In this document: in pieces, positions 392-31,420 of the stretch
Position numbering within the stretch: the stretch's first letter is position 1
Layout of the letters: each line of letters begins with the position of its first letter
Assembly: GCA_030167865.1 (NCBI GenBank)
Contig: JALAGF010000154.1
Location: 1-32,122, forward strand
Source: Craspedostauros australis
Taxonomy: Eukaryota
Direction of reading: 5' to 3'
DNA length: 32,122 nucleotides
Program-made: the position numbers and the translations under genes
The notes under the pieces: model-generated
What the model was told of the DNA's origin: nothing
Seen by the model: the letters and a program-made list of their open reading frames with translations, nothing else
The model's database searches: none

Positions 392-1795
392 TTTTTGGGG
401 TCCGTTTGTTTGAGGCACTAGAGTGCGGTGATCACATCTGTGCTGACACATCATCTCAATGCAGGTGCTCTGTATTCGTGCTGGTATGTGCGTTGGTGTC
501 ACGGTGGAAATGCCCGCATCATGGTACAAGAAGTCCAGCGACCCTGCGCTGTTGATTCCGCAATTTTTGAGTGCCGCTGTGGCCCCCCTGCATTTCGGAT
601 GAGGAGAAACCCTGTTCGAATTGTCCGAAACGAGACGGTTCCTGACTTCGCTGGGAGTGCTCCTACGAGTGCCGCATGCAATTTAACAGCTTAGGCCTTG
701 GCGGTGCCAATTTGGCCTTGGGAGCTTTTAGATCATTCGTCTGACGTCCGCAGGAACAACAGGAGGTGAAGAAGGCAGACTCGCACGCCTGCCATCCTGT
801 TGGTTAATTATTGAGATGAACGTTAAGCCAAAGATCATATGCAGACATTCAAAGAGACTTTTTTTGTGTTTTGAATAAGTGGTAAGCATGATTATGATTA
901 ACGCCGCCTTCTTGTTTCTGCGTCTGGGCACGGAAACGAACATCGGAATAGCACGGTGTGTGTTCAGGTGACACGAGCTGATACGTTGAAGGGACAGTGA
1001 GAGAGGAAGTTCTGACGTTCGGAAACGGCGACTTCGGCGCAGCGAAACGCGTCCAATGCACAAACGCTCTGGTGGGGCTGAACGAATCCGGCCAAAAAAA
1101 AGCAAAGCGCAACCACAACGTAACGCTGTGCAGGACGATGCAACAGAACTCGACATGCTGCGACGTTTGCGTTGTGCAGTGTTGCGCCGTACTTTGCTAT
1201 GACACGGACCGGCGAAACACACAGTGCTGATGTCCGTTGCAACATCTGATGCTTCTGCCCATCCGTCCAGCAAACCAAGCACACGACCACATCCTCATCC
1301 TTCACACCCCAGGCAACCACCCGTGCACCTCTCGCCGTTCCATTGCTGCGGACAGTGTCGACTGACTCCACAACTACCTCCTACGCGAAGACGACAGTGC
1401 AACTTGCACAGGCGTTCTTGTTCCGGTGGTCCATTCGAAGGAAACTCTGTTGTTGCCCCACTTCAGAAAGGACACACAATCCTCACCCCTTTCTACGCAC
1501 CAGCGATACCGCCACCGTGAGCTACAAGGACACAGACACAGACACAACCACAATCACAATCACGACGAGACATTCTCGTACTCATAGTCGCACTTCCATC
1601 CTTCCCTGCAATTGCATTTCCATGGACACGCACATACACATGCACAGCGCACACAAAAAAACAAAGTCATCAACCCGCACCATCAAGCATCTTCTCCTCC
1701 AACGGCGGACACTGGAGGAAAGCAGAAGCGCCACCAGCACAAAAACAAACTTCAACAGCACAAGCGCGAACACTTCCTGTCAACACCTCGTTGCC

Positions 1796-4700
1796 ATGCG
1801 TACGCGGACCAAAGGCCTGTCCTTTGGGGAGACACAGGAAGACAATGAGGATGGCCACAAAGGCGATGACAGGGCCATAGCAGACGATGGTTCCGCAGAC
1901 CGGAACGAAAATAACGAAAATAACGACGACGACAGTGACACAACGGAAGAAGAGGAACTCGAAAATGAGTCCTCCGCCACCAAATCATCACAAGCAGTCT
2001 CCACGCCAGATCCACACGGAAGTTATATGGAGAACGAACAATGCAGTCCAAGTGACGCAGAGGCGAGTGGACAAGAACATGAAGGCGCTGAGGATGGCAA
2101 AGATCCAGCGGGAGCGACAGACGCTCACCACGACAGCGATGAGCTCCACGAGGACACTGAGACGGAGAACGAGACGAATATGAACAAGGACGAGAACGAG
2201 GACGAGAACGAGGACGGCAATGATGACGACGACGACGACGACTGGGATGAACACGAACATGAGCATGAGCGTGAGCACGACGAGGGGGAAGAACAAGAGC
2301 AAGAGGAAGTAAAGCAAGTTCAAAAGCAAAAGCAAAAGGAAGCCAAACAAACGGCCGCAGCGAAGCGAAGAAAGAAGCCGGGCAATGGAACAACGCTGGC
2401 CAGGTTACTGACAAAGGAAGAAGAGGCGAAGGTGTGGGAAACGTTGGACGCAAAGTACGCGCACGTGTTGAAATGTGAGGAACCTCTCGAACATGACAAA
2501 AAGCGTGGGATCACTATCCTGGACGCCAAAACGAATAGGAACTGGGAGGCAAACTTCAGAGAGTTGCTGGTGTTCAAGGAGGTGTATGGTCACACGGTCG
2601 TTCCTAAGCTGTTCCCTGAAAATGAACGTGTCTCCAGATTCGTCGTCAACAACCGCAAATGGATGCAAAAGATGATCAAGAACAACGAAAAGACCCGGCT
2701 TTCCCAGTCCCGAATCGATCGTCTGAATGCCATCGATTTCGTGTGGCAACCAAAGAAAAACAAGGGATTCTGGATGGCGCACTTCAACCGTAAGGTAAGA
2801 CTGAAATCCGCGATACGGCCAGCCCAAAACGAAGCACGCCACAGCAATACTTTGCCCCGATGCAGGTCAGCAGCAATTACCAGCGGCGACCATCGGAAGG
2901 GTCGAATGAACGCGCGTGTGATTGCATCTTCTGTGCGACGTTGACAGTAACCATGTTGGCGACTGCAACGCTGACGGTACCAGCAGCGGCGCTATGCCTG
3001 TTGTTGTTGTCGTCGTCGTCGTCGCCTTCTTTGGTGCTGTTGTGCAATACGATCTACTTGTAACCAAGCGCATCTTCGATCCCATCTTCGCGCTCCACAA
3101 CTCCCACGCATTCCGTGCCGACCTTCTGTGACTCACCACTATTTTTCGTTCGCACCACTGTCTTCCACTACAATATTAATATTATTGTATGGTATTCTAT
3201 TCTATTATATAATACCACTCCATATCATATTCCACATACCACCACGCAAAATCGCTACTGACACTCGCACACCACAATATTGGTGCTGTGTACAGGAAAG
3301 CGTTGAGAAATTCCTGGATATGCTGGAGGAATTGAAGAAGTACAAGGAGAAGCACGGCACTTGCCTGGTTCCGAAAGTCTGCACAACACACGTCGTAAGT
3401 TCAAGGGCACGCTCACGCGTTGCAACACCACGCCACCGACGGGAACATCATCTGCGAGTTTCCCACTCCGTTGCTTTCGTCATTGTGTTGCAGGGTGCGA
3501 TACCACACGAGTACACCCCGATCCATTATTCTGAAGAGAGGAGTATGACGTACACATTCGATCCCTGCATGCCATTGCTCCATGTGAAAATGTCCATTGA
3601 CTCTTCCTCACAAACGTTGCATCCGTTCTCCTCATTCGCTTTCTCAACGGATGTGAATGGTGCCCTCACTGTCGCGTATTACGACTATATCATGTTACGA
3701 TGCATCCATTTTTGGCTTCAATCATCAGGAGCTGTCCAAGTGGGTCGTCCGACAACGAGCGTTATACCGAAACAAGACGAGAGGACAATTCAGCAGTCTC
3801 ACTGACGAGAAGGAAAAAATGCTGCGAGACATCGGGTTCGTATTCAATTCACACAAGTCGGTACGTCAACGCGAATGCGCCCATGATTACGAAGCTGAGA
3901 TGTCTCGTGAGACAGATCTACGCACAGCATTGCCCGTATTCAGCTCGTTTCGTGTTCTGTCGGTGGCCTTCATTGTCTTCACATCATGAGCTTTCGTGGA
4001 CGCAACCTCTCGTGCACCTTTCTGTGCTCTGTTCATGTGTGATCAAGACCATCCTGTGATGGCTACAACGATGCCTACGACGATGGATCGTACGATTGGC
4101 CAAACAGTATCGCCTCGTTATTGCGCGCTTCAACGGACGCTCACCTGCACACTTGCACTTCGTCATTCTGCGCCATTCGCTCAATACAGGAGCTCCCTCG
4201 CCGCAGTCTGTACACGTTGTTCGCTGGAAAATGGGAGGCGAAGTATGCTGAACTCGTCAAGTTTCGTGAGAAAAATGGTCATGTTCACGTCCCTCGCCGG
4301 CGCAAAGGATGCGAAGCCCTGGGTTCGTGGGCGCAACGTCAGCGTCAGCACTACAGGTTGAAGCTGGCTGGCAAACCAAGTTGCCTCACTCCATATAGGT
4401 ACAACAAGCTCAAGGCGATCAACTTTCCATTCTCGGTGGACGGCAAAGGTATTGGTGTGCCGGACACTGAGGATGGAAGTTGGGAAGAACTCGAATTTAA
4501 CGAGAACGAATTGTACGAGAGTCGCTGTCATGAAGCCAACGTGTGAGTCGATCATGTGTCGTGGTGGGATCCAACGCAACACAGTGTAACAAGCTTTGTG
4601 GTGTCGCATGTGCTTTCATGCCCATCGAGCTGTGCTCGTGACTACCAGCAAAAATGCAGCTTCCGTCGATGTTGCAGTGGCTCCATTCTGATTCACATTC

Positions 4701-16419: not shown

Positions 16420-18228
16420 ATGTCCCGAAGAACGCATTACGAGGTGCTGGGAGTCGATCCCAGTGCGGAGCAGGCAGAGATTCGAAAGGCCTACCTCAAG
16501 GCATCCTTGAAGCACCAGTGAGTTACCATACATACAATACGGACTAGTCCATCATTTGCTTTCTCCGGACAACAGACCACTCGTATTGCTCAAACATTCA
16601 GTGGCATCGCATGCCCCAAGGACTCGGCGTAGGCGCATTACGTTGCATTTGTCGTTAGCTGCATCGAGAAATGAAGAAGTCAAACAGTGATGTGTTTTCT
16701 CAGCATGCAGCGTGATGCACCCATGATTCAACGCAATGCGTACGATTTCCGCTGGACGACTCAACTCTATCACACTGCATACTGACCAATTGCTTGTCAC
16801 CAATACCACGTTCAATTGCATGATACAACATCACATACCATTGTATTCTATAATGCACCATGTGCGAACAACAGCCCAGACAAAAATCCCAACGATGTGG
16901 AAGGCGCCAAGGCACGTTTCGTTGAGTGCGGACAGGCGTACGAAGTGCTCAAGGACCCTGCGCAGCGTTCTGCCTACGATCGAGAATTGCGCAGCGGACG
17001 ATCAAGCAACTTTGGCAGACGAACCGGAGGTGGTGGCACGGCCAACCGCGATAACTTCTCATCCGGCTTCTCAGGCGGTGGAGGTGGATACGCATCGTCA
17101 GCGGGAGCATCCAACTCTTCGGGACCACAGTCGGCGTCGTCGGCGGACTACGAGAACTACCGCGACTTCTTCGATGCCAACGTGGCTGGCATGTCGGAGG
17201 CGGAGTTTGCGATGGCGGTCGGGGCCGTCTCTGCGATTGCGAGCGTCGTGGGCAGCATCGTCGGCAGTCGGTTGCTTGGAGGTCAGCAGGAAGGTGCCAG
17301 GCGCAGCGCCGTGTCGGGCGTGCTCACAACTGCGGGGTCCATGGCAGGCAGCATGATCGCATCCAAGTTGGCTGGTGATGCCGTTCAGGCCATCCATCAG
17401 AGCAGCGTCGAACGTGTGACCTACCGGCAGCAATGCAAGCGTGCGGTGGAGATGGGTCAGCCGATGCCGGAACCGCCACGGAAAGCGGAATGGGAACACG
17501 GCCTCGAGCAAGCCCTGGATTCTGTCAAGCGAACCTTCATGGACGGGATCTCGGGCAACAACACTGGCGGCGGTGGCGGAGGAGGAGGAGGAGGCGGCAA
17601 CTTCAGCGCTGGCAATAGCAACAATCAAGGCGCCTACAACAATCAACAGCAACGACAACAGCAGCAACAGCAACAACAACCACAGCAGAACTACCGATCG
17701 GCTGGTCCAACTTCCAACAATCAGAACAGCAGCAACAACAGGAACAAGTACAGTAGCAATAGCAACAACGGTGGTGGTGCTCGTGCGAGCGGATCGACGA
17801 ATGGCAAAGGAGCGTTCGGTGGCATGCAGGACGAGTTTGAAAGGAATGTAAAGAACGCTCAAGAAGATGCCGCCAAGGCCGCAGCAAAGCAATTTGCAGG
17901 AAGTATGTGGCAGTCAGCAACCGGCGGCAATTCCAACAACAAGAAGAACAGAGGCAGCCAACAGCAGCAATACCAGAACAATCGATCGGCTGGTTCCAAT
18001 TACAACAGCGGCAATCAAGGCAATGGCCGATCGAACGGATCCAGAACCGGGAATGGTGGAGGAATGTTTGGTGGCATGCAACAAGAGTTTGAAAGGAACG
18101 TGCAGGAGGCCCAAGAGGAGGCTGCCAAGGCCGCAGCAAAGCAATTCATGGGAAGCATGTGGAAGTCGACCAAGGATGGAGTGCGCAACAGCACATCTGG
18201 TGCGAATGCAGGTGGATACAGAAGGTGA
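16420..18228 (+). CDS. J-domain (DnaJ/Hsp40-family) protein with Gly-rich linker, Gly/Ala hydrophobic segments and duplicated Q/N/G-rich tail; ~483 aa, exons 16420-16517 and 16875-18228
   Basis: Exon 1 (too short for the ORF track) reads MSRRTHYEVLGVDPSAEQAEIRKAYLKASLKH. A phase-2 intron at 16518-16874 (GTGAGT...ACAG) restores HHPDKNP, followed by AKARFVECGQAYEVLKDPAQRSAYD. Confidence 0.92.
17660..18180 (+). repeat. Intragenic tandem duplication (~250-290 bp unit) in the J-protein C-terminus
   Basis: FGGMQDEFERNVKNAQEDAAKAAAKQFAGSMWQS vs FGGMQQEFERNVQEAQEEAAKAAAKQFMGSMWKS (GGCATGCA at 17821 and 18073). Each copy is preceded by QQQ..RSAG. Confidence 0.9.
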
Positions 18229-18599: not shown

Positions 18600-21500
18600 T
18601 CAATCATCGTCTCGCCGAAATGCCCGCCCGAGAATGCCCCACTCATTGCGCCCCGGCTCCTGGCGATCATCCGGCCGTTCAAACCATCCACCGAATCGGC
18701 TCTGGCCCCGTCTGCCAGATTTGCCACGAGATGAGGACCACAACGAACGTCCCGATTTGCCCGAGTTCCGTCTTCCCGTCGCGCTCTTGCGATTCCCCCT
18801 GTTGGAACCTCTCTGTGACGACGAGGATGTTCTGCGATTGCGTGACTTGGGGCCTTTCTTGCTCGCACCACTGGCACCCCTGGAAGCTGATCGCCGACTT
18901 GGCTTGCCATCTTTCATGCGCCCACGCTCCTGGACTTCATCGCGGAACTGTCCCAGACGACCAAAGAGCTCGGATACCCATGACGGCCAGATAATGGTAA
19001 CAACAGCTGTGGTGATGGCGACGAAGGAGGGTGAGATGGTGTAGACGGCGCCCACGAGGTTCACGAGGATCAAGGAAGCGAGAATGGTTCTAATCCTCCG
19101 ACCCCAAACACCCCGTTCCTTCGTCAAGACATCGCCTCGCACGCCACGGACCAATTCCTTCCATGTCTGCCCATCGCCCTTGGCGATGGATTTGTATGCA
19201 TTGCGACATGTGCGACGGAACCAGTACCACACATCGTACACTGTCTGGATGACGCGATATCGCGACTTGCCCTTGCGGCCTCTTCTCAACGATTTCTCTT
19301 CGACCAGCCAAGCGGTACGCAACGTGGCCAACACTCTGCGGCCGACCTCGTTTTCCTGTTCCCACCGATCGAATTTCACCTTGCCGGCTTGGAATCGCGC
19401 ATTCCAGGCATCCATCTTATCCTGGATCTTGAACTTGCCATCCAGTTCTTCGTACGTCTTGTAGTACTGGTACGACAGCTGCCCGGTCTTGTACAAGAAC
19501 CAAATGGTCGAAAAGGTGTCGTACGCCCTGATGTAGAGATCGGTCAATCGACGTCCGCTGCCGACAAGCAAACGTCCCAAGGCATTGTCAGGCGTTGTCT
19601 TGGGTCTGCCACCGTTGTTCGGATTCGGCTCGCCCAGATTGTTCGTAATGTCGTATCCGTACATGGCCCCGGCCAACAACCCGACAAGCCAGAGGTTGGG
19701 CAGCAAGGTCGTTGCCATGATGGTTCCAAACAGCGCGCTTGAGATAACCGTCCCTCGCTGCAAATCCTTGTCCTGCATCTTTCGTGGTTGCGGAAAAGCG
19801 ACGGCCTTGGAACGCTTCCCGCTTTCGTCAGCGGATCTTTCTGTCGCCATCCCGTTGCCATTGCTGGATGGAGCCACAGGCAGCATGGATAAGTGATGGA
19901 AGTTCCCGTTGCTTGTGAACTTCCCGGTGGTGGAATCGAACACCTGGCCGTATCCTCTCTGTTCCAAGATGGCCTCCAGGTATGACATCGTGATTGTATC
20001 GTTCGGTCCGAGCTTGGGCAACGCCGTCATTTGCACGGGCGGGCTTTGTGGCTGCGCGGCATCTCCAGGGCTCTTCAACGATGGCTTCTTCGTCTTCGTG
20101 ATTGGCTTGTACGACAGACTCTCCAAGAGGCTGCCGGCATTGGCCGATATCACACCCGTGTCGAAATACGGCAACGCGTACGCTGTCGACGCAAAGTATA
20201 TCTTGGACGGGTCCGTGGACTTTGATGTCTTGAATTTGGTGCCCCCACCTTGGGCGTACGTTGTTTGATTGACTCCGAGCAACCTGTCAACAGCATGAGA
20301 AGCCGATGACATCTGCTCTGCTTCATTTGTAGGGGGCGCCTGCAACAGCTCTGGGACCTCGTTTGGTTTGTCACCATGCTTGTGAATATATTGGTGATGA
20401 TGATGATGATGACGCAGTGATCTCCGTTTGCCGCGGAGGAGAAGCTTCAAACCCCTTGCTCTGTCACGTACCATCACATGCGGTCGTAGGAAGCTGCTGA
20501 TGCGTTTGGTGCTGGTTTCGGTTGCTGTCGACGCATCAGTTGCTGGTGGACGTGTCGCTGTCGAGTATTTGGATGATCCTGTGAGTCCCAACGAATACCG
20601 CTGGGACGCGTGCATAGGGTATTTTCCGTTTGCCTCGCCGGAAGTTGAATTGCCAAGTGTGTTGGACGCGGCTGACGTATCATTCGCTGCCAAATGACCA
20701 TCGAGTGCTGCCGTTTGATTGAACGTGACAAAGGGCGATCCTGGCTGTACAGACTGTGCGATGACATCCATAATCTGCTTCACGGCAGCATCATCCAACC
20801 CTCCAGATGATCGTAGAAGAGGTTCAAGATCATCCACCAGCACCATGGGCGGTATTTGGAAGGACGAGGATACGTTGTTCGCATTCAACGAGGCGTTCAG
20901 CAAGTACATCATGCCAGATACTGACGACAGAGCGCTCTCCACGATGGGCAACGATGATGCATTCAATGATGGGATTTTGTAAGGTCCGATGGAGAAGAAG
21001 GCATCATCGCCGTTGCCACTCTGCTCGGCTGCGGTGAAGTTTTTGAATATGATGCTCTGCGTTTGATCGATAGTCCTGCCGAGTGACTCGATGAGATCGT
21101 TGTCCGCTGGCCAGTACTCATAGATCGTGCTGTCCCACGGGCTGGAGCCATTCTTGACATTGGACACGTTCGTTTCGTTCGCTCCATTCGTCTCGTTCGG
21201 TTCAGACGTCCCATCATCGGATGAAGAAGGAAAGGAGGAATTTGAATGGTTGGATGGCTCTATTGCGACCATGGTTTGAACCTCATCTGCGGATCTTGGA
21301 ACGTAGCTTGGCTTGAAGGAATCAAACTTGTTCTTGATCCTGCCAAACGCGGATTGGAGCGGCCCTCGTCGGCTATTCTTCAACACGTTGCTCTGGCTGT
21401 CACCTTCCGTGCTTAATTCGGTTGCTGTTGTTGATGACGCTGCCATATGTGCGTTGGTGTTGTTGGAATTGTTGGAAGTGTTCGTGATGATGCTCTCATC

Positions 21501-21719
21501 CGTCGGAGCGATGGAACCAAGCAACGCATTTCCGGACGGTTTCACGGTTTGATGCCTGGGCATTGCGACGAACCCATGTGATGTTTGGAAGGGCATGCAG
21601 AGCAGGAAGCATGACATCACCATCGCCACCCCTGCTGTGCATTTCCGCGCCTTCTTTCGCTTGCCACCACCCGAGGCGAACGCCAACTTGGCAGAGCCAT
21701 TCTCTCGTTGCAGCAGCAT
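18600..21719 (-). CDS. Uncharacterised 1039-aa membrane protein, probably plastid-targeted
   Basis: Uninterrupted 3.1-kb ORF. The hydrophobic stretch AGVAMVMSCFLLCMPFQTSHG-FVA resembles a signal peptide with +1 Phe. It has a low-complexity middle, TM pairs (GTVISSALFGTIMATTLLPNLWLVGLLAGAMYG; ILASLILVNLVGAVYTISPSFVAITTAVVTIIWPSW) and an Arg/Ser-rich tail. I recognise no family. Confidence 0.8.
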   Translation of the reverse strand: MLLQRENGSAKLAFASGGGKRKKARKCTAGVAMVMSCFLLCMPFQTSHGFVAMPRHQTVKPSGNALLGSIAPTDESIITNTSNNSNNTNAHMAASSTTATELSTEGDSQSNVLKNSRRGPLQSAFGRIKNKFDSFKPSYVPRSADEVQTMVAIEPSNHSNSSFPSSSDDGTSEPNETNGANETNVSNVKNGSSPWDSTIYEYWPADNDLIESLGRTIDQTQSIIFKNFTAAEQSGNGDDAFFSIGPYKIPSLNASSLPIVESALSSVSGMMYLLNASLNANNVSSSFQIPPMVLVDDLEPLLRSSGGLDDAAVKQIMDVIAQSVQPGSPFVTFNQTAALDGHLAANDTSAASNTLGNSTSGEANGKYPMHASQRYSLGLTGSSKYSTATRPPATDASTATETSTKRISSFLRPHVMVRDRARGLKLLLRGKRRSLRHHHHHHQYIHKHGDKPNEVPELLQAPPTNEAEQMSSASHAVDRLLGVNQTTYAQGGGTKFKTSKSTDPSKIYFASTAYALPYFDTGVISANAGSLLESLSYKPITKTKKPSLKSPGDAAQPQSPPVQMTALPKLGPNDTITMSYLEAILEQRGYGQVFDSTTGKFTSNGNFHHLSMLPVAPSSNGNGMATERSADESGKRSKAVAFPQPRKMQDKDLQRGTVISSALFGTIMATTLLPNLWLVGLLAGAMYGYDITNNLGEPNPNNGGRPKTTPDNALGRLLVGSGRRLTDLYIRAYDTFSTIWFLYKTGQLSYQYYKTYEELDGKFKIQDKMDAWNARFQAGKVKFDRWEQENEVGRRVLATLRTAWLVEEKSLRRGRKGKSRYRVIQTVYDVWYWFRRTCRNAYKSIAKGDGQTWKELVRGVRGDVLTKERGVWGRRIRTILASLILVNLVGAVYTISPSFVAITTAVVTIIWPSWVSELFGRLGQFRDEVQERGRMKDGKPSRRSASRGASGASKKGPKSRNRRTSSSSQRGSNRGNRKSATGRRNSGKSGRSLWSSSRGKSGRRGQSRFGGWFERPDDRQEPGRNEWGILGRAFRRDDD

Positions 21720-21843
21720 TTTCTGCTGTCGTCACGTGATGTGGCAGTATCGTATCGTGGAATTTGTCTGAGTCTGCGGTGCAGGTATTATATATGACTT
21801 GCTTCAAGTCGGCGTGCATCGAACACTGCGGTTGTGCCTTTCG

Positions 21844-21978
21844 TATGAGTATGGGTATGAGTATGGGTATGAGTATGGGTATGAGTATGGGTATGAGTAT
21901 GGGTATGAGTATGGGTATGAGTATGGGTATGAGTATGAGTATGAGTATGGGTGTGGGCGTGGGCGTGGGTGTGGGTGT
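21844..21978 (+). repeat. Hexamer/dodecamer minisatellite (TATGAGTATGGG)x7 grading into (TATGAG)n and (YGTGGG)n
   Basis: Seven exact 12-bp units at 21844-21927, then TATGAG x3, TATGGG, TGTGGG, CGTGGG, CGTGGG, TGTGGG. Confidence 0.95.
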
Positions 21979-22415
21979 CAGTCTGGTTGTGGTTGTGTTG
22001 CGCCAGTCTCGATGACCGCGTCGGCGTCGGAGGCTGGACGGAAAATGAGGAAAAGCCGCCGACGCCGACGCTGACGCCTCTGTTGATGTGGCATCAGTAC
22101 CTCCTTCAGCTTCTCTTTGAGGTTGTTTTGGGTACGCATTTCTTCGTGTTCTTTGTCGCAGTTGATGTTTGGCGATGTGTCCATTCAAGCTTCCATGACT
22201 GGATGACGTAAGTATGATGTCATGAAGGAGATTCGTAGGCTTTGAACGGATATAGACATCGTCACAATCAACACCGAAGTCGGATCGATGAACGGATCAT
22301 ATCAGCAACAAAGACATAACTTGCGCCAGTAGAGCAGGCGGCACTGACCAAGACTGATTGGGACCACAGCTACTGAATCGTATTGCATGACATAACATCC
22401 TCTAACATATAATAT

Positions 22416-22590
22416 GACCCGTGTGAGCGAAAAGCGGTGCGGTCCATCCAGAATGCATTTTGGCCCAAGCTTGTACGGCCCCTCATAAAAATCAAAACCT
22501 ACATTTATATACTTTATCATGCTGGTAACATCATTCAGGTGTTAGATGGTGAGTCCAGGCCTTAGTTATAAAATTATAAGGGTGGCAGTT
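22416..22590 (+). repeat. Left terminal inverted repeat (imperfect, ~170 bp)
   Basis: 36-bp core, then ATTTTGG, TATATACTTTATCATGCT (22506-22523) and TTATAAAATTATAAGG (22566-22581), each with an inverted counterpart at the right end. Confidence 0.8.
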
Positions 22591-24229
22591 TACTGTTTTA
22601 GAGGCAATATACGGTGCAAGCGGACAGACGTTGGTTGTGTGGGGGGCTCATGTCACGACATGTGGAACCCATTTCTATCTGATTTTCGCTTTCTTTGTGT
22701 TTTGCTTGGTGGGAAGCTTGATGGAGAACAAGAATGTGTGCTCATTTGAACGTTACGGACGTTAATCGGAGTCGAGCCTGCGATGACGTCGTTCTTGTTT
22801 TCGTTAAGTACGGTGTGATGTCACATGATCCGTGGTGCTTGACATCGCCAAAGTTGCGTGTGGTTGGACAGACGTTCGAATTGACGTCTTCATTCCACCT
22901 GGTTCAGATCAGAGCTGATTTTCGCGTGTTTTTTGGTCGCAGAAGTGTGCGTTTGCCAATCCATTTCGAAGTGTGTGTTTGCGAGACTGGTTGCGGCGTG
23001 CGAATGCAATCGACAGTATTTGAAGTTTGTATGCTCTGCCGCAGCGATGCATTGTGGTCACTGTGAAAGGACAATCGCCATATTATTTTGCTTCGGTTCG
23101 ATTCTCGCTTTCTCTTCCTTTTTTGCACCGCACGATTTTGCTGAGTGATCTCGTATCATACTCTTCTACATTCGTCACAACATCATGTGCGCTGCATGCT
23201 CGACTCGCACCCTACTATTCTACTCTGTGTGATTTTGATTTTCTGTGTAGAATAGATCTGGATTGTTTGCCAACTGTTATCTTGCCGTACCAGCGTAGCA
23301 CACACATTCACCTGCGCTGCTGAATGGGAACGAGTATGATTTTTCGTGGATTCTTGTTCCTGTGTAGTTTGTGCATGTCCAAGCGATTGCCGACTCCTCT
23401 GACAAAGTCATGTTGTGATCATTCATGTCAACAAACAACGCAGACCGTACACATCACCACATCCAACATCACACACTTGCAAGCACAAACATCAACACAT
23501 TCACCCAAACGCCAAAACATGCTCAGGAGGGCACTCCGAACTCCCAAGTGTGAGTAAACCTGAGAGAGAACCAATTGAAGGAAATGCTGATGTCCCAAAC
23601 TACTCTGCTCTCCCACCACTATCTGAATGGTGTCTGAATGTATCTACCTACCAACACTTACACTCGGGGGTTACCCGTGGTCACCCAGGCATCCGGAGAC
23701 TGGAAATAGTGACATTCCCTTCCCTCTCAGCAGAGACAAATTCATTGCAGCTCCATCGCAACTCCAACAGCAATCCCTTCAGGGCAATACCCACCATACC
23801 CACAAATCCACCCATCAAGCGTAGAGACAGCCTACCCATCAACACCAAAAACCAAATGCAGGAGCCAACCACAAGCAACCAACAAAGAGTGAATGTCCAG
23901 AATACAGAATCCAGCAAGACAATGATCCAAACCATGATGATAACAGAGGCAGCCAGAACCGTATCTATGTCTGTCTTTTCCCCCCACCTTGATCAGGACA
24001 ACTCATGTGCCCGACTCACACACATTCTCTACCATGGCCAACAAGCTTCTCCCTCCCATGACAATGGTGATTAAAGGCCCCATGCTGAGACCTACCCCCC
24101 TCAGCTCCACCTTTGTTATCCTTGTAACAACCATCCACTGCCTCCAGATTCATCTCATTGATGCCTGTTGCACTAGCACCACCCTCATCCTTGCCCATTG
24201 GTGTCAGCTTTGCCAACTGCAATGATAGT

Positions 24230-24620
24230 GATCTGGTTCTGGTCTCCATGCACAGTCCCATGGCAGCAACACACCAACCCAAGACATGGAAGCCAATGAC
24301 GCCAAACAAACAACAGTGGACCAAGTCATGGAAGAGGTGATGGAGGGCATTGCTGACAAGCTCTACAATAGTTCACAAATGCCAAGTTCTGGGAAGTTGA
24401 TCTGAGCAATGAGCAAGTCAACAACTTGGTCATTCGCAATGTATTCACCCCCAGATGGTCATTCAAACATTGAACTCTGGGACTCGGTGCTTGCAACTCA
24501 AAAGGAGAGGTTTGAACATGTACAAACAGGAGAGGGCAACTCAGGTGCCACATTACCGTGCACAGCAAAGGGCAGTTATTCATCTGCAAAACCTGACGAC
24601 CCTTGTCGAAATGTGTGACA
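24230..24620 (+). pseudogene. Possible frameshifted coding remnant inside the transposon
   Basis: Protein-like pieces in successive frames: DMEANDAKQTTVDQVMEEVMEGIADKLYN / FTNAKFWEVDLSNEQVNNLVIRNVFTP / DGHSNIELWDSVLATQKERFEHV. No family recognised. Confidence 0.35.
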
Positions 24621-24762
24621 TCAGAAATTCCTGATCGTACAGGACTGAACCAGAACAGAGGACAGAAATAACAAAATCCCCCTCACTATCAACATGGCAA
24701 GTGTGGGATCCATCACTCCTGAGCGTTACAGAAGCATGTTCCTGTTGGGACAACGGGGAATT

Positions 24763-26139
24763 TCAACAGAGAATTGGGTGATGGGTACGTGTAGGCCATG
24801 AGTCTGTGATGTAGGCTAGCATTGTTGACGGATTTGGTAAAGAGGAGGCAGTTGTGATCTCGCTTGCATTCAAAACATCATCATGAATAGTACTTGCCTG
24901 GATCCCTGTGGTGAGAAAATTGAACTCTGGAAGGGAGAGCATTGCTTCCAGAGTGTTGATGATGTTGTTGATGATATCCTTCAGGACGGCCTTCAGCATA
25001 TCCTCCTTGGTGGCTTTGTCAATGCTGTTGCCACCACTGACATCGCATCCCTTGCTCTTGAGCTGTTGCAGGATAGCCTTGGCCACGCTGAAGGTGTTGA
25101 AGGAGGTGGCAGTATCAACATTGATCTTGCAGGATGGGAAGGAGAAGGCAGCGATGGCAATCTTCTTCTGCTGATTCTCTTTGCACTTGGGAGTGGCTCA
25201 CTTCATTCTGCTCTCAGCATGTGGAATGCTGCATCTGGTGGCTCTTCCATGTTCTGAAAGGATGCTCCCACAAAGTGGGCGAAATCGATGAGGTTCATGG
25301 TGGTATCAACGCCTGGCTTGCGCATGATTGTAGTGACAGTTGGGTTGATGCCAGCATATGGACAGAAGTTGGTGTTGATTGAGGCGAAGTAGTTCTTGCA
25401 AGTAGGCCTGTGTACTATGTGCTGCGTGAAGAGTGCGGTGTGTTGTGTGCTGCATGGCTGTGGCGACAAGGAACTGGAGGTTGTCTGGAAATCCTGCAAT
25501 TGTGTATTGCATTGCATTTGGTTCCATCAGGATGATGTGGAGTGGATGAATAGTATGGATGAAGATAAAAGGAGAAGGAGAGAATGGGTGTGATTGTGTT
25601 GGTGTGCAAGTGTTTGAAGTGCAGCACATAAACGCATGATGGGCAATTGCTACAGTGATGGTGATGGGTTGCTGCGACTGCGGTTGTGCGTCAACACTTA
25701 CCTCCAAGCCAGCGCATGTACTGGAAGCGCATGACCTCCACGATTGCATGGATGAGAAGACAAGAACTGCATCCAGGTTGGCACAAGTCAACCTGATGAC
25801 GCAGACGAGGATGCCTGGGTCCTCGGCGACATTCTTCATTAACTGCTTGTCGGCATGGCCATTGCAGAGCTCCTCGAGAAGGTACCCTGCGCACTCCACG
25901 CATCCCACGATCATGTTCTCAGATAATCCTTTCATGTGTGCGACAGTGGCAATGGCATGGAAGGAATAGTACAGACTCTCAAGGACAACGCAGGCACAGA
26001 TGATCTTTGTGATTTAGCCACAGTGGACATCCTTTGGTATGACATGATGGCTTTGACGCATTGATGGTACCATGCATTCCACCATTTCTTGCTGGACATG
26101 CAGGAGGATTTGGTCGGTTGTTGATGGCATTGATGGCAT
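24763..26139 (-). pseudogene. Decayed intron-containing gene of unknown family inside the transposon
   Basis: One frame runs MPSTTDQILLHVQQEMVE...VHCG*(TAA 26016-26014)ITKIICACVVLESLYYSF...STCAGLE. A canonical phase-0 intron follows at 25701-25494 (GAG|GTAAGT...TTGCAG|GAT), then DFQTTSS...HMLRAE*. After a frameshift it continues KIAIAAFSF...AKAILQQLKSKG...EDMLKAVLKDIINNIINTLEA. Confidence 0.6.
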
Positions 26140-28908
26140 TGACGGCTGTGGGGGACTGGCCAATGAGCACAGTAGTTGACCATTGCTGCGAAAGATCTTT
26201 GGATGCGAAGAGCGGTATCGTATGTTTGGTTGGCATCTATTGGTGCAGCAGTTTGTCCATTCCGTGTGTTCTGCCATTCGTGGATTCGGTCGTTTGTCTG
26301 TTGGTTGATTTGCGCTGCTGAATTGTGAATGTTGTTTGTTGTTCGGAGTGATCACTTGTCTGCCCATTCATTTGCGTTCGTTTGTGTTGGTTAGTTCATG
26401 CGTTTGGGAGCGACGAGCGGCGACAGTTTGGAATGGATTTTGTGGATGGAATTGTTGATCGTACGATGCTCATGCTGTTTGACATTTGAGCCACGCAGAA
26501 TCTGTAGTGTGTGCGGGTGCGCATCCGCATCAGACAGCATTCCATGGGATGCCAGAGGAGCAACATTGAATAGAACACAATGATCAATGAGTGGCATTGA
26601 TGTAAGTGATGACAAATCAAACTGGAACAAGTGATTGTTGCCAAATACTCTGCTGATTTGTTGGTTGCAGCCAGCAGAACTCAGTTGGGTGTTCTCTGTT
26701 ATGTACCCTGCAGGCTCCGCAGCTGTGACCTGTGGGCTCTGCTCTCTGCCAAATGATGCAGAGTGATCTGTTGATCGCTTTGAGATACTTTGCTGCATGT
26801 ACTATGGTCTTTGTTGGGTACTCTGGTGTTGGGGATTTGTAGTTTCTTGATTGTTGCCAATTACTTTGCAGTATATTCGATGCTTGATCCTTTTCTGCTG
26901 CTGGTTGCTTCCTGTTGGATCTTCTCTGTGAATTTGGTTGTGGTTGGATGCTCCTCGTTCTGAATGTNCTTCATTGCTTCACTACTGGTTGCCAAATGTC
27001 ATGTGGTGGTGCTCACTACTAACCCACTAGTACCTGGTTGAAGCCAGATACTCTTCTCAATATTGAGCCATGTATGAATTCATTGGCTGTGGTTGGAAGC
27101 CCTTTTGCTTCTTCTGGAAACTGCCTACTACTTGTTGATCAACAACAATATTCCCGGATCTTGCTGAATGCAGTCTTCTCATCAGTTGGTTGCTTCAGGA
27201 AGCAGTCTGTGCTCTGCATTCTGTGTGGCACCGGTGACTAGTATGTGTGTTGGCGTCAGCCGGATGTTGCCTTTCATGCTTTCGACGGGATGTGGTGCTC
27301 TCTGTCTGTTGCGACATACACTGATGAGATCTGTACTATATGCTGTGCTCTCTGCCCATCAGCTGCTTCCAGCCAGATGATCTGCTATTGACCATCAGCC
27401 GAATATACAACTTCTGAAGACTACTGTGATGTTCATTCCACATGCTCAATGCTCAGCCATCCACAAGGCTCTGAATGCACCAACTCACGGAGCATTGTCC
27501 TTGCCGCTGTGATGTCAGTGTTGTTGAGGTTGTTGTTGCCCTGATGCACGGCATTCGCAGCTCGTTGTGCATTGCTGACTGCTCTTCACTGCCCTTTGCC
27601 CATTGACATCATAGAGGATGAGAATTTGGTCTGCAGTGGGAGTGCAAGGAGATGCAGCTCCAGATCCACCATTGCCCTTCAACCATACTTGTATTCCTTG
27701 TGTGTCGGTACAGAGTGTTGACGATGGTTGCTGCATCCGTTGACGATGCTGCGGTAGGCGTTAGTGGAGTAGCTTGGTAGATTTCTCTGCTGGTGTGTTC
27801 ATGAGATGGTGGTGTCTCATGGTCGTCGACGATGCTGTCGGCACTGAACTACGCAGTATCATTCTGCTCAGCACACACTGAGCATATCTTCGATGGCCAC
27901 AATGGAGTTGTTGTTAATGATATAGTTGACCTGCAGCCCTGGTTGACTTGCTGTGATGGATGCAATTGCGTTGTTGTTCAGTTTCTGTGGTGGATGGTGT
28001 TGTTGGGACGAATCTGTTGGTCCACCCAACGCCTCCCACCAAACCATGCGTTGAATTTGTTGCGTTTGAAGGCTTTGCGAGAACCATCTACCGTCTGTCC
28101 GTGCACCCACATACACACGTCATGATGGTGAGACGAAGTGATTGGACAAGGAATACTGATGATGACGTTTGACAAATGTCAATGATAAAATACGAGAGCC
28201 ATCGGTACATTTCAAATTTGAATTTCAAACGTTCACATGTATCAGTAGTTGAAATTGCGTAGATTGTTGCCATGAAACACGAATGACGTTAATGGAGGTT
28301 ACGCGAGTCAATATTTAAAATGGCCTCTCCCGCTTTGGATTGATGGTGACTAAAGGGGTTCCACCATTGCTTCTTCCCCAGCTTGCTTACTGCCACCCAG
28401 AAGACTACGTGTACTTCAATACTTCCTAAATGATTTCCTTCAAAGACTTGGGACGATTTCTTCGACAAGGGTTGAATTGAACGACTGAGATCGAACACAT
28501 GTGAACAAGGACATTCGCCACAGTACAAGACGGCAATGCACGAGACTGAGGATGTCAATCCAATTCTCCATCGTTGCCTCACTCTTTCAGAAGCTATTGT
28601 ACTCGATTACCCCCTGTCCATTAGAAGTACCGCCTTCACCATCAGAATCCTGTGCGCAATGAATCGAGAATGAGCAGGGGAAGAGCAGTTGGGACAGCTT
28701 CCCACGTTGACACCGCGAGTTGATCATGTTGTGAGCACCCAGAAATTTGCCGTCTGCCCGTCTGTGCGGCAATTGGCATCATGTTTTGCCTCCAACCCAC
28801 CAAAAACAGATTCTCGAACTCGTGAACAAACCCAAATGTCATGAGATAGTCCCAAACTCGAGAAAAACAACACGACAGATCGTGGGCTCCATTAGAGGTA
28901 GCCTGCTC

Positions 28909-29073
28909 AACTTCATCACCTCATAACTTTATAAACAAGATTCCCCTGGAGCTTTAATCTCGGATTATGAATCTAAGTATGTTAAAGTGTATATGAGCCA
29001 AGTTTCATCTGAATCGAAGGACCAAAATCAAAGAATCCTGGAGGGACCGCACCGCTATTGACTCACACGGGTC
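28909..29073 (-). repeat. Right terminal inverted repeat (imperfect, ~165 bp)
   Basis: The reverse complement contains the 36-bp core, ATTTTGG, TATACACTTTAACATACT (28993-28976; 15/18 with the left copy) and TTATAAAGTTATGAGG (28934-28919; 14/16 with the left copy). Confidence 0.8.
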
Positions 29074-29158
29074 ATATAATGTATCCCCTCCAGGCAGGAC
29101 CTCAGCGCTTGTCCAAATCACTCAGTGTGTCTTGGCGTGTTGTCCTTGTCGCAACCGT

Positions 29159-31138
29159 TCATTGCTTGTGCGTCACATCACTATCTTCGTCGACGACCGC
29201 TGCTACTGTTCCCGCCAGCGGCGCTTCCGGCATTGCGGCTGCTACCACTTCGTTCACAGGCGTAGTGCGCACGAGATTTGTCATTTGGAGAATGCTGCGC
29301 TGCACGACGGAATCAAGGTTGTTGTTGGAGACTTCCGGCGCAGGAGAGCTTATGCTGGAGACGCTGGAATGTCTCGACACGGCGATATTGTATTCGGGGA
29401 CGTATCTGTCGCCAGGTGCGTCCATCGGCACGTCGCCGTGAGCGGCAAGGGAAGATCCACCCATGCGTCGCGAGCCGCCATCGAGATTGGATGAGGTGCC
29501 GGCCTGGGATGGACTCCATGCGCCGCTGGACATGTAATCCTGCGCCTGCGCCAGCGAGAAGATCCGCTGCTCGTCGAAGACTGGTTGGGAACTCGCGGTG
29601 TTGTTGATTGACAAGTGTGATGGCGAGGGAATATCTTGCTGGGTGTGGGTGGATTGCAAAGCAGCCGCCGCCCTGTGGGGATGCCGGTGCGCCGACGAGA
29701 ATGCGGACGCCAGGGACTGTCGCAGACTTGACGTTGTCGCTGCTTCGGTGGGTATGTTGTTTCGCACACCACCACCGATACGGACCGTCGACGCCGAGTA
29801 CGCGCCCCTTGACTGGGAGATGCCGCTGTCATTGTGGACCAAGCTGTTCGCACGAGCGGACATGGGCAGGCTGCCGGCGGGCTCCACCGCCTGGTCCACG
29901 CGTCCGCATTGCAGATTCGTTCGAGCGGCGGCCCGTATTATCGTTCCCTGACGTTCCGCCAGCGGTCCGACCCAGCGAAGGCACATGCCGCCGATGTTGT
30001 ACAGGAACAGCGAGAATGGCCACAGCACGAACGCCCCTGCTCCGACGCTGACCCATCCGTACGTCTGCTGTCTCGGCCTGCATCGTAGCACAGCGTTCTT
30101 GGCACCCCAAAAGGAAATGGCGACCAATATGAACGCAACACCGATGCTGCACCCTCTCATCCACACCTGCTGCGGTTCCTGCAGCTGCTTCTGACGTGAC
30201 TCCAGCAACCAATCTGCCTTGAGCACGGCGATGGTCGGATCGTCTTCCAGCACCAGCAATTCCACGTTGAAGAATCCCTCCTCCACGAACTGCCTCGTTT
30301 CAAAGGTCTTGCGGATCTGGATGGGCTCTTCCGTGGTTTCCACGATGTAATCGACCACCGCATGGTACACGGGGATGCCCGTCCCGTCGGGATCCTGTCC
30401 CAGCGTCACCTGCAGCACGTGCCCGCGCACCAGCTTGCTGTTCTGCTCGCGGAAGGGGTCCGTCTGAGGGTCCTCCTGCAGCGTGCTGATGATCCAAACG
30501 GTCCACCCGACTGCGCATGCCAAACACAGCCACACATCCGAAAGGCTGCCGTACACCACCTGCTGACGCCCGCGCAGCTGTCGTCTCTGCAGTGTTCTGG
30601 CTTGCGATGACAATGATGATAGCACAGATGACCGTCGCTGGTCTTCGCTTGGATCGACATGGTCGTGATCGTTGTCGTGCTTGTTGTCGTTGCGGAATTC
30701 ATAATCATGCGAGTTTTGCAACCAGGAGCCCGATTCGTCATTGATTCCCAACCCCATGTCAACATCCACCTCGGAATCGGACGCCAGAAAGGCGTAGTCC
30801 TTGATGTCAATCTTCTGCATGGAATGCGAGTACTCATGTTCGTAGCCATGGCCATACTGGTAGTCATGATCCTGGTAGTAGCTGTGCTCGTAACCGTGAC
30901 CTGATGTGACAAATGACGGCATCGATGGATAGCTGATGGAAATCCAACCATCGCAATGTCCCTCCATGCACACCCCCAACGTCAATACGATGGTAACGAA
31001 CAGAAGGATGATGCTGCGAATGGAGATAGTATTCGCATTGCTGATGCCATCGTTGTCGTTGTTGTCATTGTTGTCGTTGGTGATGGTGATCGGATGCGTC
31101 GTGGCCCATCTTGACTCAGAGGCTTCAACATCCATCAT
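29159..31138 (-). CDS. Uncharacterised multi-pass membrane protein (~659 aa) with His/Tyr/Asp-rich N-region, RxL motif and a TM-beta-TM module loosely resembling DUF3592
   Basis: Single long ORF, first ATG at 31138. Hydrophobic segments: IILLFVTIVLTLGVCM, VWLCLACAVGWTVWIIS, SIGVAFILVAISFWGA, WVSVGAGAFVLWPFSLFLY. The beta-rich loop VRGHVLQV...VYHAVVDY...VELLVLEDDP lies between TMs. The DUF resemblance is inference only. Confidence 0.78.
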   Translation of the reverse strand: MMDVEASESRWATTHPITITNDNNDNNDNDGISNANTISIRSIILLFVTIVLTLGVCMEGHCDGWISISYPSMPSFVTSGHGYEHSYYQDHDYQYGHGYEHEYSHSMQKIDIKDYAFLASDSEVDVDMGLGINDESGSWLQNSHDYEFRNDNKHDNDHDHVDPSEDQRRSSVLSSLSSQARTLQRRQLRGRQQVVYGSLSDVWLCLACAVGWTVWIISTLQEDPQTDPFREQNSKLVRGHVLQVTLGQDPDGTGIPVYHAVVDYIVETTEEPIQIRKTFETRQFVEEGFFNVELLVLEDDPTIAVLKADWLLESRQKQLQEPQQVWMRGCSIGVAFILVAISFWGAKNAVLRCRPRQQTYGWVSVGAGAFVLWPFSLFLYNIGGMCLRWVGPLAERQGTIIRAAARTNLQCGRVDQAVEPAGSLPMSARANSLVHNDSGISQSRGAYSASTVRIGGGVRNNIPTEAATTSSLRQSLASAFSSAHRHPHRAAAALQSTHTQQDIPSPSHLSINNTASSQPVFDEQRIFSLAQAQDYMSSGAWSPSQAGTSSNLDGGSRRMGGSSLAAHGDVPMDAPGDRYVPEYNIAVSRHSSVSSISSPAPEVSNNNLDSVVQRSILQMTNLVRTTPVNEVVAAAMPEAPLAGTVAAVVDEDSDVTHKQ

Positions 31139-31420
31139 TATAGTTGGATTATACAATATAAGAGTTGGTATTGTGTGGCTGTTGCTTGAGCCGACGTGAT
31201 GCGTTTTGTTTTCTTATGATGTGTTGAGTACGATGATGGCGATGGTTCAACACAACAACTACGACAACAACCACAACTACTGTATGCTAGCGTGTGATGC
31301 TGATGACAATGATGATGTCCCGCAAGATCGACTGTGCTCTTCCTGTCGTCTTCCGAACGAACTGTCCAATTGCGTGATGGATGTTGTCCACGCTCAATCA
31401 CAAGTGTATGCCTACGAGTA

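What the first reader, a model, noticed from the sequence alone, without database searches (positions are those of the whole stretch)
22407..29082. A 6.66-kb MULE-type element with no transposase but gene-like cargo: candidate diatom Pack-MULE
Seen: inverted ends matching at 32/36 nt, patchy inverted similarity for ~170 bp, and a 9-bp near-duplicate flank (ATATAATAT/ATATAATGT). Together these bracket the whole gene-free interval, which the ORF track shows only as short ORFs. Known: G-initial long imperfect TIRs with 9-bp TSDs define Mutator-like elements, and Pack-MULEs that capture host gene pieces are best described in flowering plants. Inference: I see no DDE/SWIM transposase remnant but do see an intron-bearing gene relic, so this may be a gene-capturing non-autonomous MULE in a stramenopile, or a MULE family with an unknown accessory gene. 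A less likely reading of the ends is a TA-TSD element starting TGACCCG.
Basis: partly seen in the sequence, partly recalled or inferred. Interest (0 to 1): 0.8.

Follow-up and report, generated by a model that had tools for sequence, protein, structure and literature searches.

The report
Transposase-less transposon carrying a chlorophyll-gene relic
A 6.66-kb stretch between two genes of a diatom-like alga is a single insertion of a cut-and-paste transposon that has no transposase gene of its own but carries a broken piece of a magnesium-chelatase (chlorophyll synthesis) gene; it is an ordinary kind of element, though such cargo carriers have hardly been described in diatoms.

Summary
The ends are real inverted repeats: 32/36 nt match, the core runs about 44 nt, and weak similarity reaches about 185 nt. 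They are flanked by ATATAATAT/ATATAATGT. This inverted pair is the only significant self-similarity found in the window.

No transposase was found in 136 ORFs or in six read-through frames. The "gene relic" is a fragment of the Mg-chelatase H subunit (ChlH) on the minus strand, 26064→24919. It covers ChlH residues ~70-360 and ~499-586 at 35-43% identity to diatom ChlH. It has two in-frame stops, frame changes and a ~138-residue gap. The supposed intron is not supported.

Best reading (0.5): a non-autonomous Mutator-like element with old ChlH-derived cargo, mobilised in trans.

Two caveats:
- The 9-mer is a perfect palindrome, so a 3-bp TAA duplication (PIF/Harbinger type) predicts the same empty site.
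- No genome, sequencing run or related contig was available. Copy number, an autonomous partner, the parent gene and an empty site are therefore all untested.

"Pack-MULE" is plausible but unproven. Cargo-carrying non-autonomous transposons are already reported in another stramenopile (Ectocarpus). Interest is moderate to low.

The parts
22407..22415 (.). Left flanking 9-mer ATATAATAT (candidate target-site duplication)
   Evidence: Matches the right flank at 8/9. Only 7 of 32,114 9-mers in the window lie within 1 mismatch.
22416..29073 (.). Whole element, 6,658 bp, lying between two minus-strand ORFs (29159-31213 and 18600-21731/22296)
   Evidence: Bounded by the only significant inverted repeat of the window. 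G+C is 0.45-0.50 inside and 0.52-0.60 in the flanks.
22416..22459 (+). Left terminal inverted repeat, core ~44 nt, starting GACCCGTGTGAG
22460..22600 (+). Left subterminal region with weak inverted similarity to the right end
   Evidence: 78 of 151 columns identical; 12 of 1000 shuffles reach the score.
23403..24074 (+). 223-aa stop-to-stop ORF of unknown meaning. It is low-complexity, C/A-rich, and has no Met before residue ~152.
   Evidence: No Pfam hit. Codon score 0.03-0.12 bits/codon.
24919..26064 (-). Mg-chelatase H-subunit (ChlH) pseudogene fragment. Block 1, 26064->25747, covers ChlH aa ~70-183. A weak piece, 25515->25450, covers aa ~252-275. Block 2, 25403->25269, covers aa ~316-360. 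Block 3, 25218->24919, covers aa ~499-586. In-frame stops lie at 26014-26016 and 25198-25200.
   Evidence: Pfam PF02514, E 2.7e-6. PDB ChlH 4zhj, E 0.0086. tblastn with 7 diatom ChlH proteins, E down to 2.7e-14. Own ChlH HMM, E 9.6e-15 / 1.1e-9 / 0.1.
28889..29029 (-). Right subterminal region with weak inverted similarity to the left end
29030..29073 (-). Right terminal inverted repeat, core ~44 nt
29074..29082 (.). Right flanking 9-mer ATATAATGT (candidate target-site duplication)

Best explanation
The interval 22416-29073 is one insertion of a non-autonomous class II (cut-and-paste) transposon, most likely of the Mutator-like (MULE) superfamily.

Proposed mechanism: a transposase made by another, autonomous family member binds the two inverted ends. 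It excises the whole 6.66 kb and reinserts it at an AT-rich site by a staggered 9-bp cut. Repair of that cut left ATATAATAT on both sides, and one copy has since mutated to ATATAATGT.

The element encoded no transposase when it landed. About 1.15 kb of its interior is a disabled fragment of a Mg-chelatase H-subunit (ChlH) gene, picked up by an ancestor of the element well before this insertion. That makes it a Pack-MULE-like cargo.

Shown: the ends, the flank repeat, the absence of any Pfam-recognisable transposase, and the identity and broken state of the ChlH fragment.

Inferred: the superfamily, mobilisation in trans, capture from a host gene, and the order of events.
For: Ends and flanks:
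- The TIR pair is unique and far beyond chance.
- Weak similarity extends to ~185 nt (12 of 1000 shuffles reach it). This suits the long degenerate TIRs of MULEs.
- The 9-bp flank match is 8/9, and 7 of 32,114 9-mers in the window are that close.

Agreement with published MULE features:
- MULE TSDs are 8-11 bp and MULE TIRs are commonly long (passages of PMC6446971).
- An active Phaeodactylum tricornutum MULE has 9-bp, low-GC TSDs and ~200-bp TIRs (passages of 10.1101/2023.01.02.522487).
- MULE families are known in both model diatoms (passages of PMC2806351).

No transposase:
- 19 ORFs, 136 of 139 ORFs >=35 aa and six read-through frames gave only PF02514.
- The two arms differ at only 6 of 44 core positions and the flanks at 1 of 9. 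Decay since insertion is therefore small, and a transposase gene present at insertion should still be visible. This step is inference.

Cargo:
- Collinear ChlH blocks lie on one strand.
- A stop sits where ChlH has a conserved Trp, and another sits inside the conserved N-terminal stretch.

Setting:
- The element lies in an otherwise short intergenic gap of a gene-dense window.
Against: - Only one copy could be examined, so nothing shows that the ends are repeated in the genome.
- The clear TIR core is ~44 nt, which is short for a MULE.
- ATATAATAT is a perfect odd palindrome. A 3-bp TAA duplication with ends starting TATGACCC needs no mismatch and predicts the same empty site.
- Pfam is not very sensitive to decayed genes here. 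It detected only one of the three ChlH blocks, and no diatom transposase sequences were at hand for a tblastn check.
- The ChlH fragment is far from every ChlH in 1.84 billion representatives: the best three hits are ChlH fragments at 44-49% identity and the fourth is a repeat protein. A recent capture from the host's canonical gene is therefore excluded, and the source remains unknown.
- About 5.5 kb of the interior is unexplained.
Confidence: 0.5

Rival explanations
1. It is a non-autonomous PIF/Harbinger-type element. The ends start TATGACCC...GGGTCATA, the target-site duplication is the trinucleotide TAA, and the rest of the 9-mer resemblance comes from AT-rich palindromy of the target. 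The ChlH cargo is the same.
For: With the boundary moved 3 nt outward, both flanks read TAA (3/3) and the inverted repeat gains 3 perfect pairs, so no mismatch is needed (arms extended to 22409/29080). The ~44-47-nt core suits Harbinger TIRs (recalled). Harbinger-like elements make up a significant share of the transposons of Thalassiosira pseudonana (passages of PMC2806351). The classic TNA duplication is seen in the stramenopile Ectocarpus (passages of PMC12477816).
Against: This reading requires that 5 of the 6 bases outside the TAA match the element's own termini by chance. The weak similarity out to ~185 nt and the G-initial terminus under the 9-bp reading fit MULEs better (recalled). No Myb-like or DDE_Tnp_4 relic was found, although a non-autonomous copy would not need one.
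Confidence: 0.2
2. It is a non-autonomous element of another or an undescribed TIR superfamily, for example Merlin, which also makes 8-9-bp duplications. The cargo is the same.
For: The same end and flank evidence applies. Superfamily cannot be read from a transposase because there is none. The Merlin TSD length is recalled and comes from no call.
Against: In the papers I searched and read, no Merlin or other 9-bp-TSD superfamily is mentioned for diatoms, whereas MULEs are.
Confidence: 0.1
3. It is a decayed autonomous element whose transposase gene has eroded beyond recognition in the ~5.5 kb of unexplained interior. The ChlH piece is an accessory or a later insertion.
For: Pfam detected only one of the three ChlH blocks, so weak relics can escape it. 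The 223-aa ORF at 23403-24074 has gene-like codon usage and no assignment.
Against: The arms (38 of 44) and flanks (8 of 9) show little decay since insertion, so a transposase present at insertion should still score. There is no hit in six read-through frames. Codon-usage scores are non-coding-like over nearly all of the interior outside the ChlH block.
Confidence: 0.06
4. It is not a transposon. Instead, a ChlH pseudogene region or rearranged segment happens to be bounded by an inverted repeat and an AT-rich microhomology, for example from a repair or duplication event.
For: There is only a single copy and no empty site or second copy was seen. The AT-rich flanks are of low complexity.
Against: A 44-nt inverted repeat abuts an 8/9 direct repeat exactly. 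Each is improbable on its own (0 of 100 shuffles; 7 of 32,114 9-mers), and together they are the signature of transposition. The interval interrupts an otherwise compact gene array.
Confidence: 0.07

Closest known systems
Phaeodactylum tricornutum MULE that disrupted UMPS (Abbriano et al., bioRxiv 10.1101/2023.01.02.522487; abstract and passages seen)
   Same: The host is of the diatom type. It has terminal inverted repeats, 9-bp duplications of low G+C, and it inserts near or in genes.
   Different: That element is 3,707 bp and has ~200-bp TIRs. It encodes a MULE/SWIM transposase plus a UBR-type E3 ligase, and its authors state that it is not a Pack-MULE. The element here is 6,658 bp, has a ~44-nt clear TIR core, and has neither gene. 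Its sequence and TSD table are in supplements or a repository that I could not read, so the ends could not be compared.
Pack-MULEs of flowering plants (Jiang et al. 2004, recalled; definition seen in passages of PMC6446971)
   Same: MULE-like ends, no transposase, and host-gene-derived fragments inside.
   Different: Plant Pack-MULEs are defined in families, with an identifiable parent gene of high nucleotide identity. Here there is one copy, no parent gene is in hand, and the fragment is only 35-43% identical in protein to canonical ChlH. The element is also larger than typical Pack-MULEs (recalled).
Giant non-autonomous DNA transposons of Ectocarpus that carry only non-transposase genes (PMC12477816; passages seen)
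   Same: The host is a stramenopile. These are transposase-less TIR elements with cargo, and their authors call them analogous to Pack-MULEs.
   Different: [quoted passage not shown] The element here is 6.66 kb, has a 9-bp (or 3-bp) duplication, and its cargo is a broken gene fragment.
Non-autonomous PIF/Harbinger elements (Harbinger-like elements of Thalassiosira pseudonana, PMC2806351; Harbinger-N families of Ectocarpus, PMC12477816)
   Same: Short to medium TIRs, a possible TAA duplication, and no transposase.
   Different: The 8/9 match over 9 bp, the weak similarity out to ~185 nt and the G-initial terminus are not expected of Harbinger.
Mg-chelatase H subunit (ChlH/GUN5), e.g. Synechocystis ChlH, PDB 4zhj
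   Same: The stretch 26064->24919 is homologous to ChlH N-terminal parts. For one block, the same ORF 24763-25197 scores E 2.7e-6 against Pfam PF02514 and E 0.0086 against 4zhj residues 467-531.
   Different: Only ~40% of the protein length is represented. It has stops, frame changes and a ~138-residue gap. The conserved FSFPPDKGNVGTAAYLDVF motif reads FSFPSCKINVDTATSFNTF. It is not a working ChlH gene.

Membership tests
Mutator-like element (MULE), non-autonomous | Target-site duplication of 8-11 bp, usually 9 | tested here: inconclusive
   The 9-bp flanks match at 8/9, and 7 of 32,114 9-mers in the window are that close. However, the 9-mer is a perfect palindrome, so a 3-bp TAA reading fits equally. 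One copy cannot decide.
Mutator-like element (MULE), non-autonomous | Long terminal inverted repeats (commonly >100 bp) | tested here: inconclusive
   The clear core is ~44 nt (32/36, then 38/44). Positions 45-185 are 52% identical, and 12 of 1000 shuffles reach that score. There is nothing beyond 185.
Mutator-like element (MULE), non-autonomous | Shares its ends with an autonomous element that encodes a MULE DDE transposase (PF10551) | not testable with these tools
   No genome is held. No transposase domain was seen in the element or in the 15 large ORFs scanned in the rest of the window.
Mutator-like element (MULE), non-autonomous | Repeated family with independent insertions | not testable with these tools
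   There is no second copy in the window. No genome is held. No run was listed. The metagenome and viral scans gave 0 hits or chance hits.
Pack-MULE | No transposase gene inside | tested here: met
   Pfam scans covered 19 ORFs, 136 of 139 ORFs >=35 aa and 6 read-through frames. Only PF02514 was found. Sensitivity to decayed genes is limited.
Pack-MULE | Carries fragment(s) of host genes | tested here: met
   ChlH-homologous blocks are present, with E down to 2.7e-14 (tblastn) and 9.6e-15 (HMM). That the source was this host's own gene is not shown.
Pack-MULE | Identifiable parent gene in the same genome; different interiors between the same ends | not testable with these tools
   No genome is held.
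PIF/Harbinger, non-autonomous | 3-bp TNA target-site duplication | tested here: inconclusive
   TAA/TAA is obtained if the boundary is moved 3 nt outward. This cannot be told apart from the 9-bp reading on one copy.
   TA/TA is possible at a 1-nt shift. It would leave the 8/9 direct match in another register unexplained, so this is the least economical reading.
Functional Mg-chelatase H subunit gene | Uninterrupted ~1,300-1,400-aa protein with PF11965 and PF02514 | tested here: not met
   Only aa ~70-360 and ~499-586 are represented. There are two in-frame stops and frame changes, and nothing lies beyond aa 586 above background.

The most novel reading that the evidence does not exclude
This would be a diatom family of Pack-MULE-type elements that captured a ChlH (GUN5-type) N-terminal gene piece long ago. 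The family would have kept it under coding constraint while transposing, so that copies could express a truncated ChlH-like protein or RNA near host promoters. The oddly low number of stops (2 in 251 codons against ~11 expected) and the gene-like codon usage of the relic, despite 35-43% identity, leave this reading open.
Probability: 0.1. Interest if true: 0.6.

Novelty: new member of a known kind. Interest (0 to 1): 0.35.

Why it matters
If a whole-genome search confirmed it, this would be a documented case of a transposase-less DNA transposon moving host-gene-derived sequence in a diatom. That behaviour has been studied mainly in flowering plants, and among stramenopiles it has only recently been noted, in brown algae.

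Diatom genomes are compact. A 6.66-kb insertion about 80 bp downstream of one gene's stop codon and upstream of the next gene could well affect their expression.

As it stands the finding is a single, probably old and inert copy. It is useful for transposon annotation of this genome, and it warns that the ChlH-like stretch is not a second chlorophyll-synthesis gene.

Tried and rejected
Searches that gave nothing:
- Whole genome: none is held.
- Sequencing runs: none was listed for 21900-29600, so no reads could be laid. No RNA holder was listed.
- Earlier findings of this scan: there is nothing for this genome, for the TIR sequence or for look-alikes. A word search gave only two Ostreococcus MULE notes.
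- Metagenome contigs: a 26-specified-base consensus of the two arms gave 0 hits.
- Metagenome contigs, looser 21-base pattern: 5 loci. All are the same G+C-rich sequence and match only the specified bases, so they are chance matches.
- Viral contigs: 0 hits.
- Rfam at gathering scores over 22000-29500: 0.
- Tandem repeats inside the element: only a 26-nt array.
- Other internal repeats or nested inverted pairs: none above chance.
- The search for homologous proteins with the 144-aa ChlH-like ORF against longer proteins: none scored.
- The neighbouring 684-aa ORF: relatives reach at most 54% identity over short local stretches (12-39% of the query). This genome's own proteins are therefore not in that collection, and the organism could not be named.

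Readings considered and rejected:
- An intron at the GTAAGT site (~25700). Weak ChlH homology continues at 25515-25450 with the expected spacing.
- Extra ChlH pieces at 27564-27460 (-), 28765-29043 (+) and 15683-15483 (-). Their scores are at or below 4.7 bits, the same as background pieces.
- A composite of two small elements. The terminal 12-mer occurs only twice in the window.

Full report
THE OBSERVATION

The claimed ends are in the sequence as described. The left end reads ...AACATATAATAT|GACCCGTGTGAGCGAAAAGCGGTGCGGTCC... and the right end reads ...GGACCGCACCGCTATTGACTCACACGGGTC|ATATAATGTATCC....
- The repeat finder reports arms 22409-22459 and 29030-29080, 51 nt, 84% complementary. This is the longest inverted pair listed for the whole window.
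- The 30-mer of the left end is found exactly twice in the window at up to 3 mismatches, and 0 of 100 shuffles gave two matches.
- The terminal 12-mer also occurs only twice.
- A word-7 blastn of the element against the window returns only this pair at E<=0.01.
- Beyond the core the similarity is weak but probably real up to about 185 nt: 78 of 151 columns are identical and 12 of 1000 dinucleotide shuffles reach the global score. From 185 to 300 nt there is none (618 of 1000).
- The abutting 9-mers ATATAATAT and ATATAATGT match at 8/9. Only 7 of 32,114 9-mers of the window are within one mismatch of the first, including these two.

THE JUNCTION IS AMBIGUOUS

ATATAATAT is a perfect palindrome around its central A. 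Three other readings are therefore possible on this one copy:
- AT or TA as a 2-bp duplication.
- ATAT as a 4-bp duplication.
- With the boundary moved 3 nt outward, a perfect TAA/TAA duplication with ends TATGACCC...GGGTCATA.

The 9-bp reading and the TAA reading predict the same empty site.
- The 9-bp reading needs one substitution. That is expected, because the arms themselves differ at 6 of 44 core positions. It also needs a palindromic target.
- The TAA reading needs no substitution, but it needs 5 of 6 neighbouring bases to resemble the element's own tips by chance.

I judge the two readings to be of comparable likelihood on the junction alone. What tips me towards the 9-bp (Mutator-like) reading:
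- The weak long-range end similarity.
- The G-initial terminus (recalled as typical of MULEs).
- The described diatom MULE with 9-bp, low-GC duplications (passages of 10.1101/2023.01.02.522487).

Harbinger-like elements are also known in diatoms (passages of PMC2806351), and TNA duplications are seen in a stramenopile (PMC12477816). That rival keeps 0.2.

WHAT IS INSIDE

No transposase was found. Pfam scans covered:
- 19 larger ORFs.
- 136 of the 139 stop-to-stop ORFs of at least 35 aa. Three minus-strand ORFs that contain the single N at 26969 were left out.
- All six frames read through with X at stops, which also covers those three.

The only family found was PF02514, CobN/Mg-chelatase, in ORF 24763-25197 on the minus strand (E 2.7e-6, 26.0 bits against a cut-off of 24.5).
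- The same ORF matches Synechocystis ChlH (4zhj and three further entries) at residues 467-531 (E 0.0086).
- Against 1.84 billion representative proteins it has only four hits at E<=0.001. Three are ChlH fragments at 44-49% identity and one is a repeat protein.

I then fetched diatom-type ChlH proteins and used 7 of the 124 proteins held at that point as tblastn queries. From 84 of them I also built a ChlH HMM.

Collinear pieces on the minus strand:

| Window (minus strand) | ChlH residues | Support |
|---|---|---|
| 26064→25747 | ~70-183 | tblastn E 3e-7 to 9e-11 (from residue ~118 only, E 4e-6, for the N-terminally truncated query P0006); HMM 1.1e-9 |
| 25515→25450 | ~252-275 | E 0.01-0.07 in a 450-nt search |
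| 25403→25269 | ~316-360 | E 0.002-0.2; HMM 0.1; 8.7 bits in 67-aa pieces, against at most 4.7 bits outside the element |
| 25218→24919 | ~499-586 | tblastn E 3e-10 to 3e-14; HMM 9.6e-15 |

Nothing beyond residue 586 rises above background.

The relic is broken:
- A TAA stop sits inside the conserved N-terminal stretch (VIPKDVHCG*ITKII against VVPEDVRGRPTMKIV).
- A TGA stop replaces the Trp of the conserved LKW motif.
- The frame changes between blocks.
- 14 residues are missing in block 1.
- About 138 residues are missing between blocks 2 and 3.
- The invariant FSFPPDKGNVGTAAYLDVF motif reads FSFPSCKINVDTATSFNTF.

The other ~5.5 kb has no match in Pfam or Rfam. Its codon usage is non-coding-like, apart from a 223-aa low-complexity ORF at 23403-24074 that I could not assign.

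TIMING (INFERENCE)

The arms (38 of 44) and flanks (8 of 9) have diverged little since insertion. A transposase gene present at that time should therefore still be visible, so the element was already non-autonomous when it landed.

The ChlH piece is far more diverged: 35-43% identity to diatom ChlH proteins, which are at least 79% identical to the query fragment in that stretch. It therefore diverged before this insertion, either inside the transposon lineage or in a divergent paralogue that served as the source.

One thing is unexplained. The relic has only 2 in-frame stops in 251 aligned codons, where shuffles give 11.0 +/- 3.2 and only 2 of 2000 shuffles give two or fewer. Block 3 also has gene-like codon usage (0.22-0.25 bits per codon, against 0.05-0.18 for four real ORFs of the window). 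Long neutral decay does not fit this. A diverged but recently still-coding source does.

SETTING

The window is gene-dense and includes helicase-associated-domain ORFs (recalled as expanded in diatoms).

The element lies 77 bp downstream of the stop of the 684-aa ORF 29159-31213 and upstream of the 1043-aa ORF 18600-21731, both on the minus strand. It is also ~440 bp from a 12-bp microsatellite.

The 684-aa ORF has relatives reaching at most 54% identity over short local stretches (12-39% of the query). This organism's proteins are therefore not in that collection.

WHAT COULD NOT BE TESTED

- No genome is held.
- No run was listed.
- Scans of metagenome and viral contigs found no relative.

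As a result, the copy number, duplication lengths in other copies, alternative interiors, an autonomous partner, the parent ChlH gene and an empty site are all open.

COMPARISON WITH WHAT IS KNOWN

- MULEs occur in diatoms (PMC2806351; the 'MULE-Diatoms' group with 123-124-bp TIRs in PMC6446971). One is active in Phaeodactylum, and its authors say it is not a Pack-MULE.
- Of the papers that hold both 'Pack-MULE' and 'diatom' (9 papers), I saw only listings apart from that preprint and PMC6446971. None of the titles describes a Pack-MULE in a diatom.
- Further searches gave none either.
- In another stramenopile, Ectocarpus, giant transposase-less families carrying other genes were reported in 2025 and likened to Pack-MULEs (PMC12477816).

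The kind of element is therefore known. A diatom example with ChlH-derived cargo would be a new member.

VERDICT

- A real transposon insertion: about 0.85-0.9 (summing the transposon readings).
- Mutator-like with old captured ChlH cargo: 0.5.
- Harbinger-type: 0.2.
- Other superfamily: 0.1.
- Decayed autonomous element: 0.06.
- Not a transposon: 0.07.

'Pack-MULE' is a fair working label but not a demonstrated one. Interest: 0.35.

Noticed in passing
window 21843-21976: A 12-bp microsatellite, (GTATGAGTATGG)n, with ~9 copies at 97% match that grade into GTGTGG-type units. It lies ~440 bp left of the element and inside the 266-aa stop-to-stop ORF 21496-22296, which is therefore probably not coding there.
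   Followed up: no
window 1250-2944 and 2975-3805 (+): Two neighbouring ORFs with the helicase-associated (HA, PF03457) domain. The first scores E 5e-10. The second scores E 4e-5, below the Pfam cut-off.
   Followed up: no
window 23403-24074 (+): A 223-aa stop-to-stop ORF inside the element. It is Pro/Thr/His/Ser-rich and has no Met before residue ~152. Its codon score is in the range of real genes, and it has no Pfam hit.
   Followed up: partly
window 26969: A single N inside the element. It is an ambiguous base and not a gap. It falls in the unexplained part of the interior.
   Followed up: no
window 27564-27460 (-), 28765-29043 (+), 15683-15483 (-): Several ChlH queries give the same weak alignments to ChlH residues ~810-930 and ~1090-1160. 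The scores (at most 4.7 bits in 67-aa pieces) are no better than background.
   Followed up: yes
window 17799-17915 and 18051-18167: A 117-nt direct repeat (79% identity, 252 nt apart) with Gln/Asn-rich codon repeats. It lies inside the DnaJ-domain ORF 16786-18228.
   Followed up: no
window 29159-31213 (-): The 684-aa ORF next to the element has 29 relatives. All are unnamed or 'hypothetical', and they reach at most 54% identity over short local stretches (12-39% of the query). It looks like a lineage-restricted gene family.
   Followed up: no
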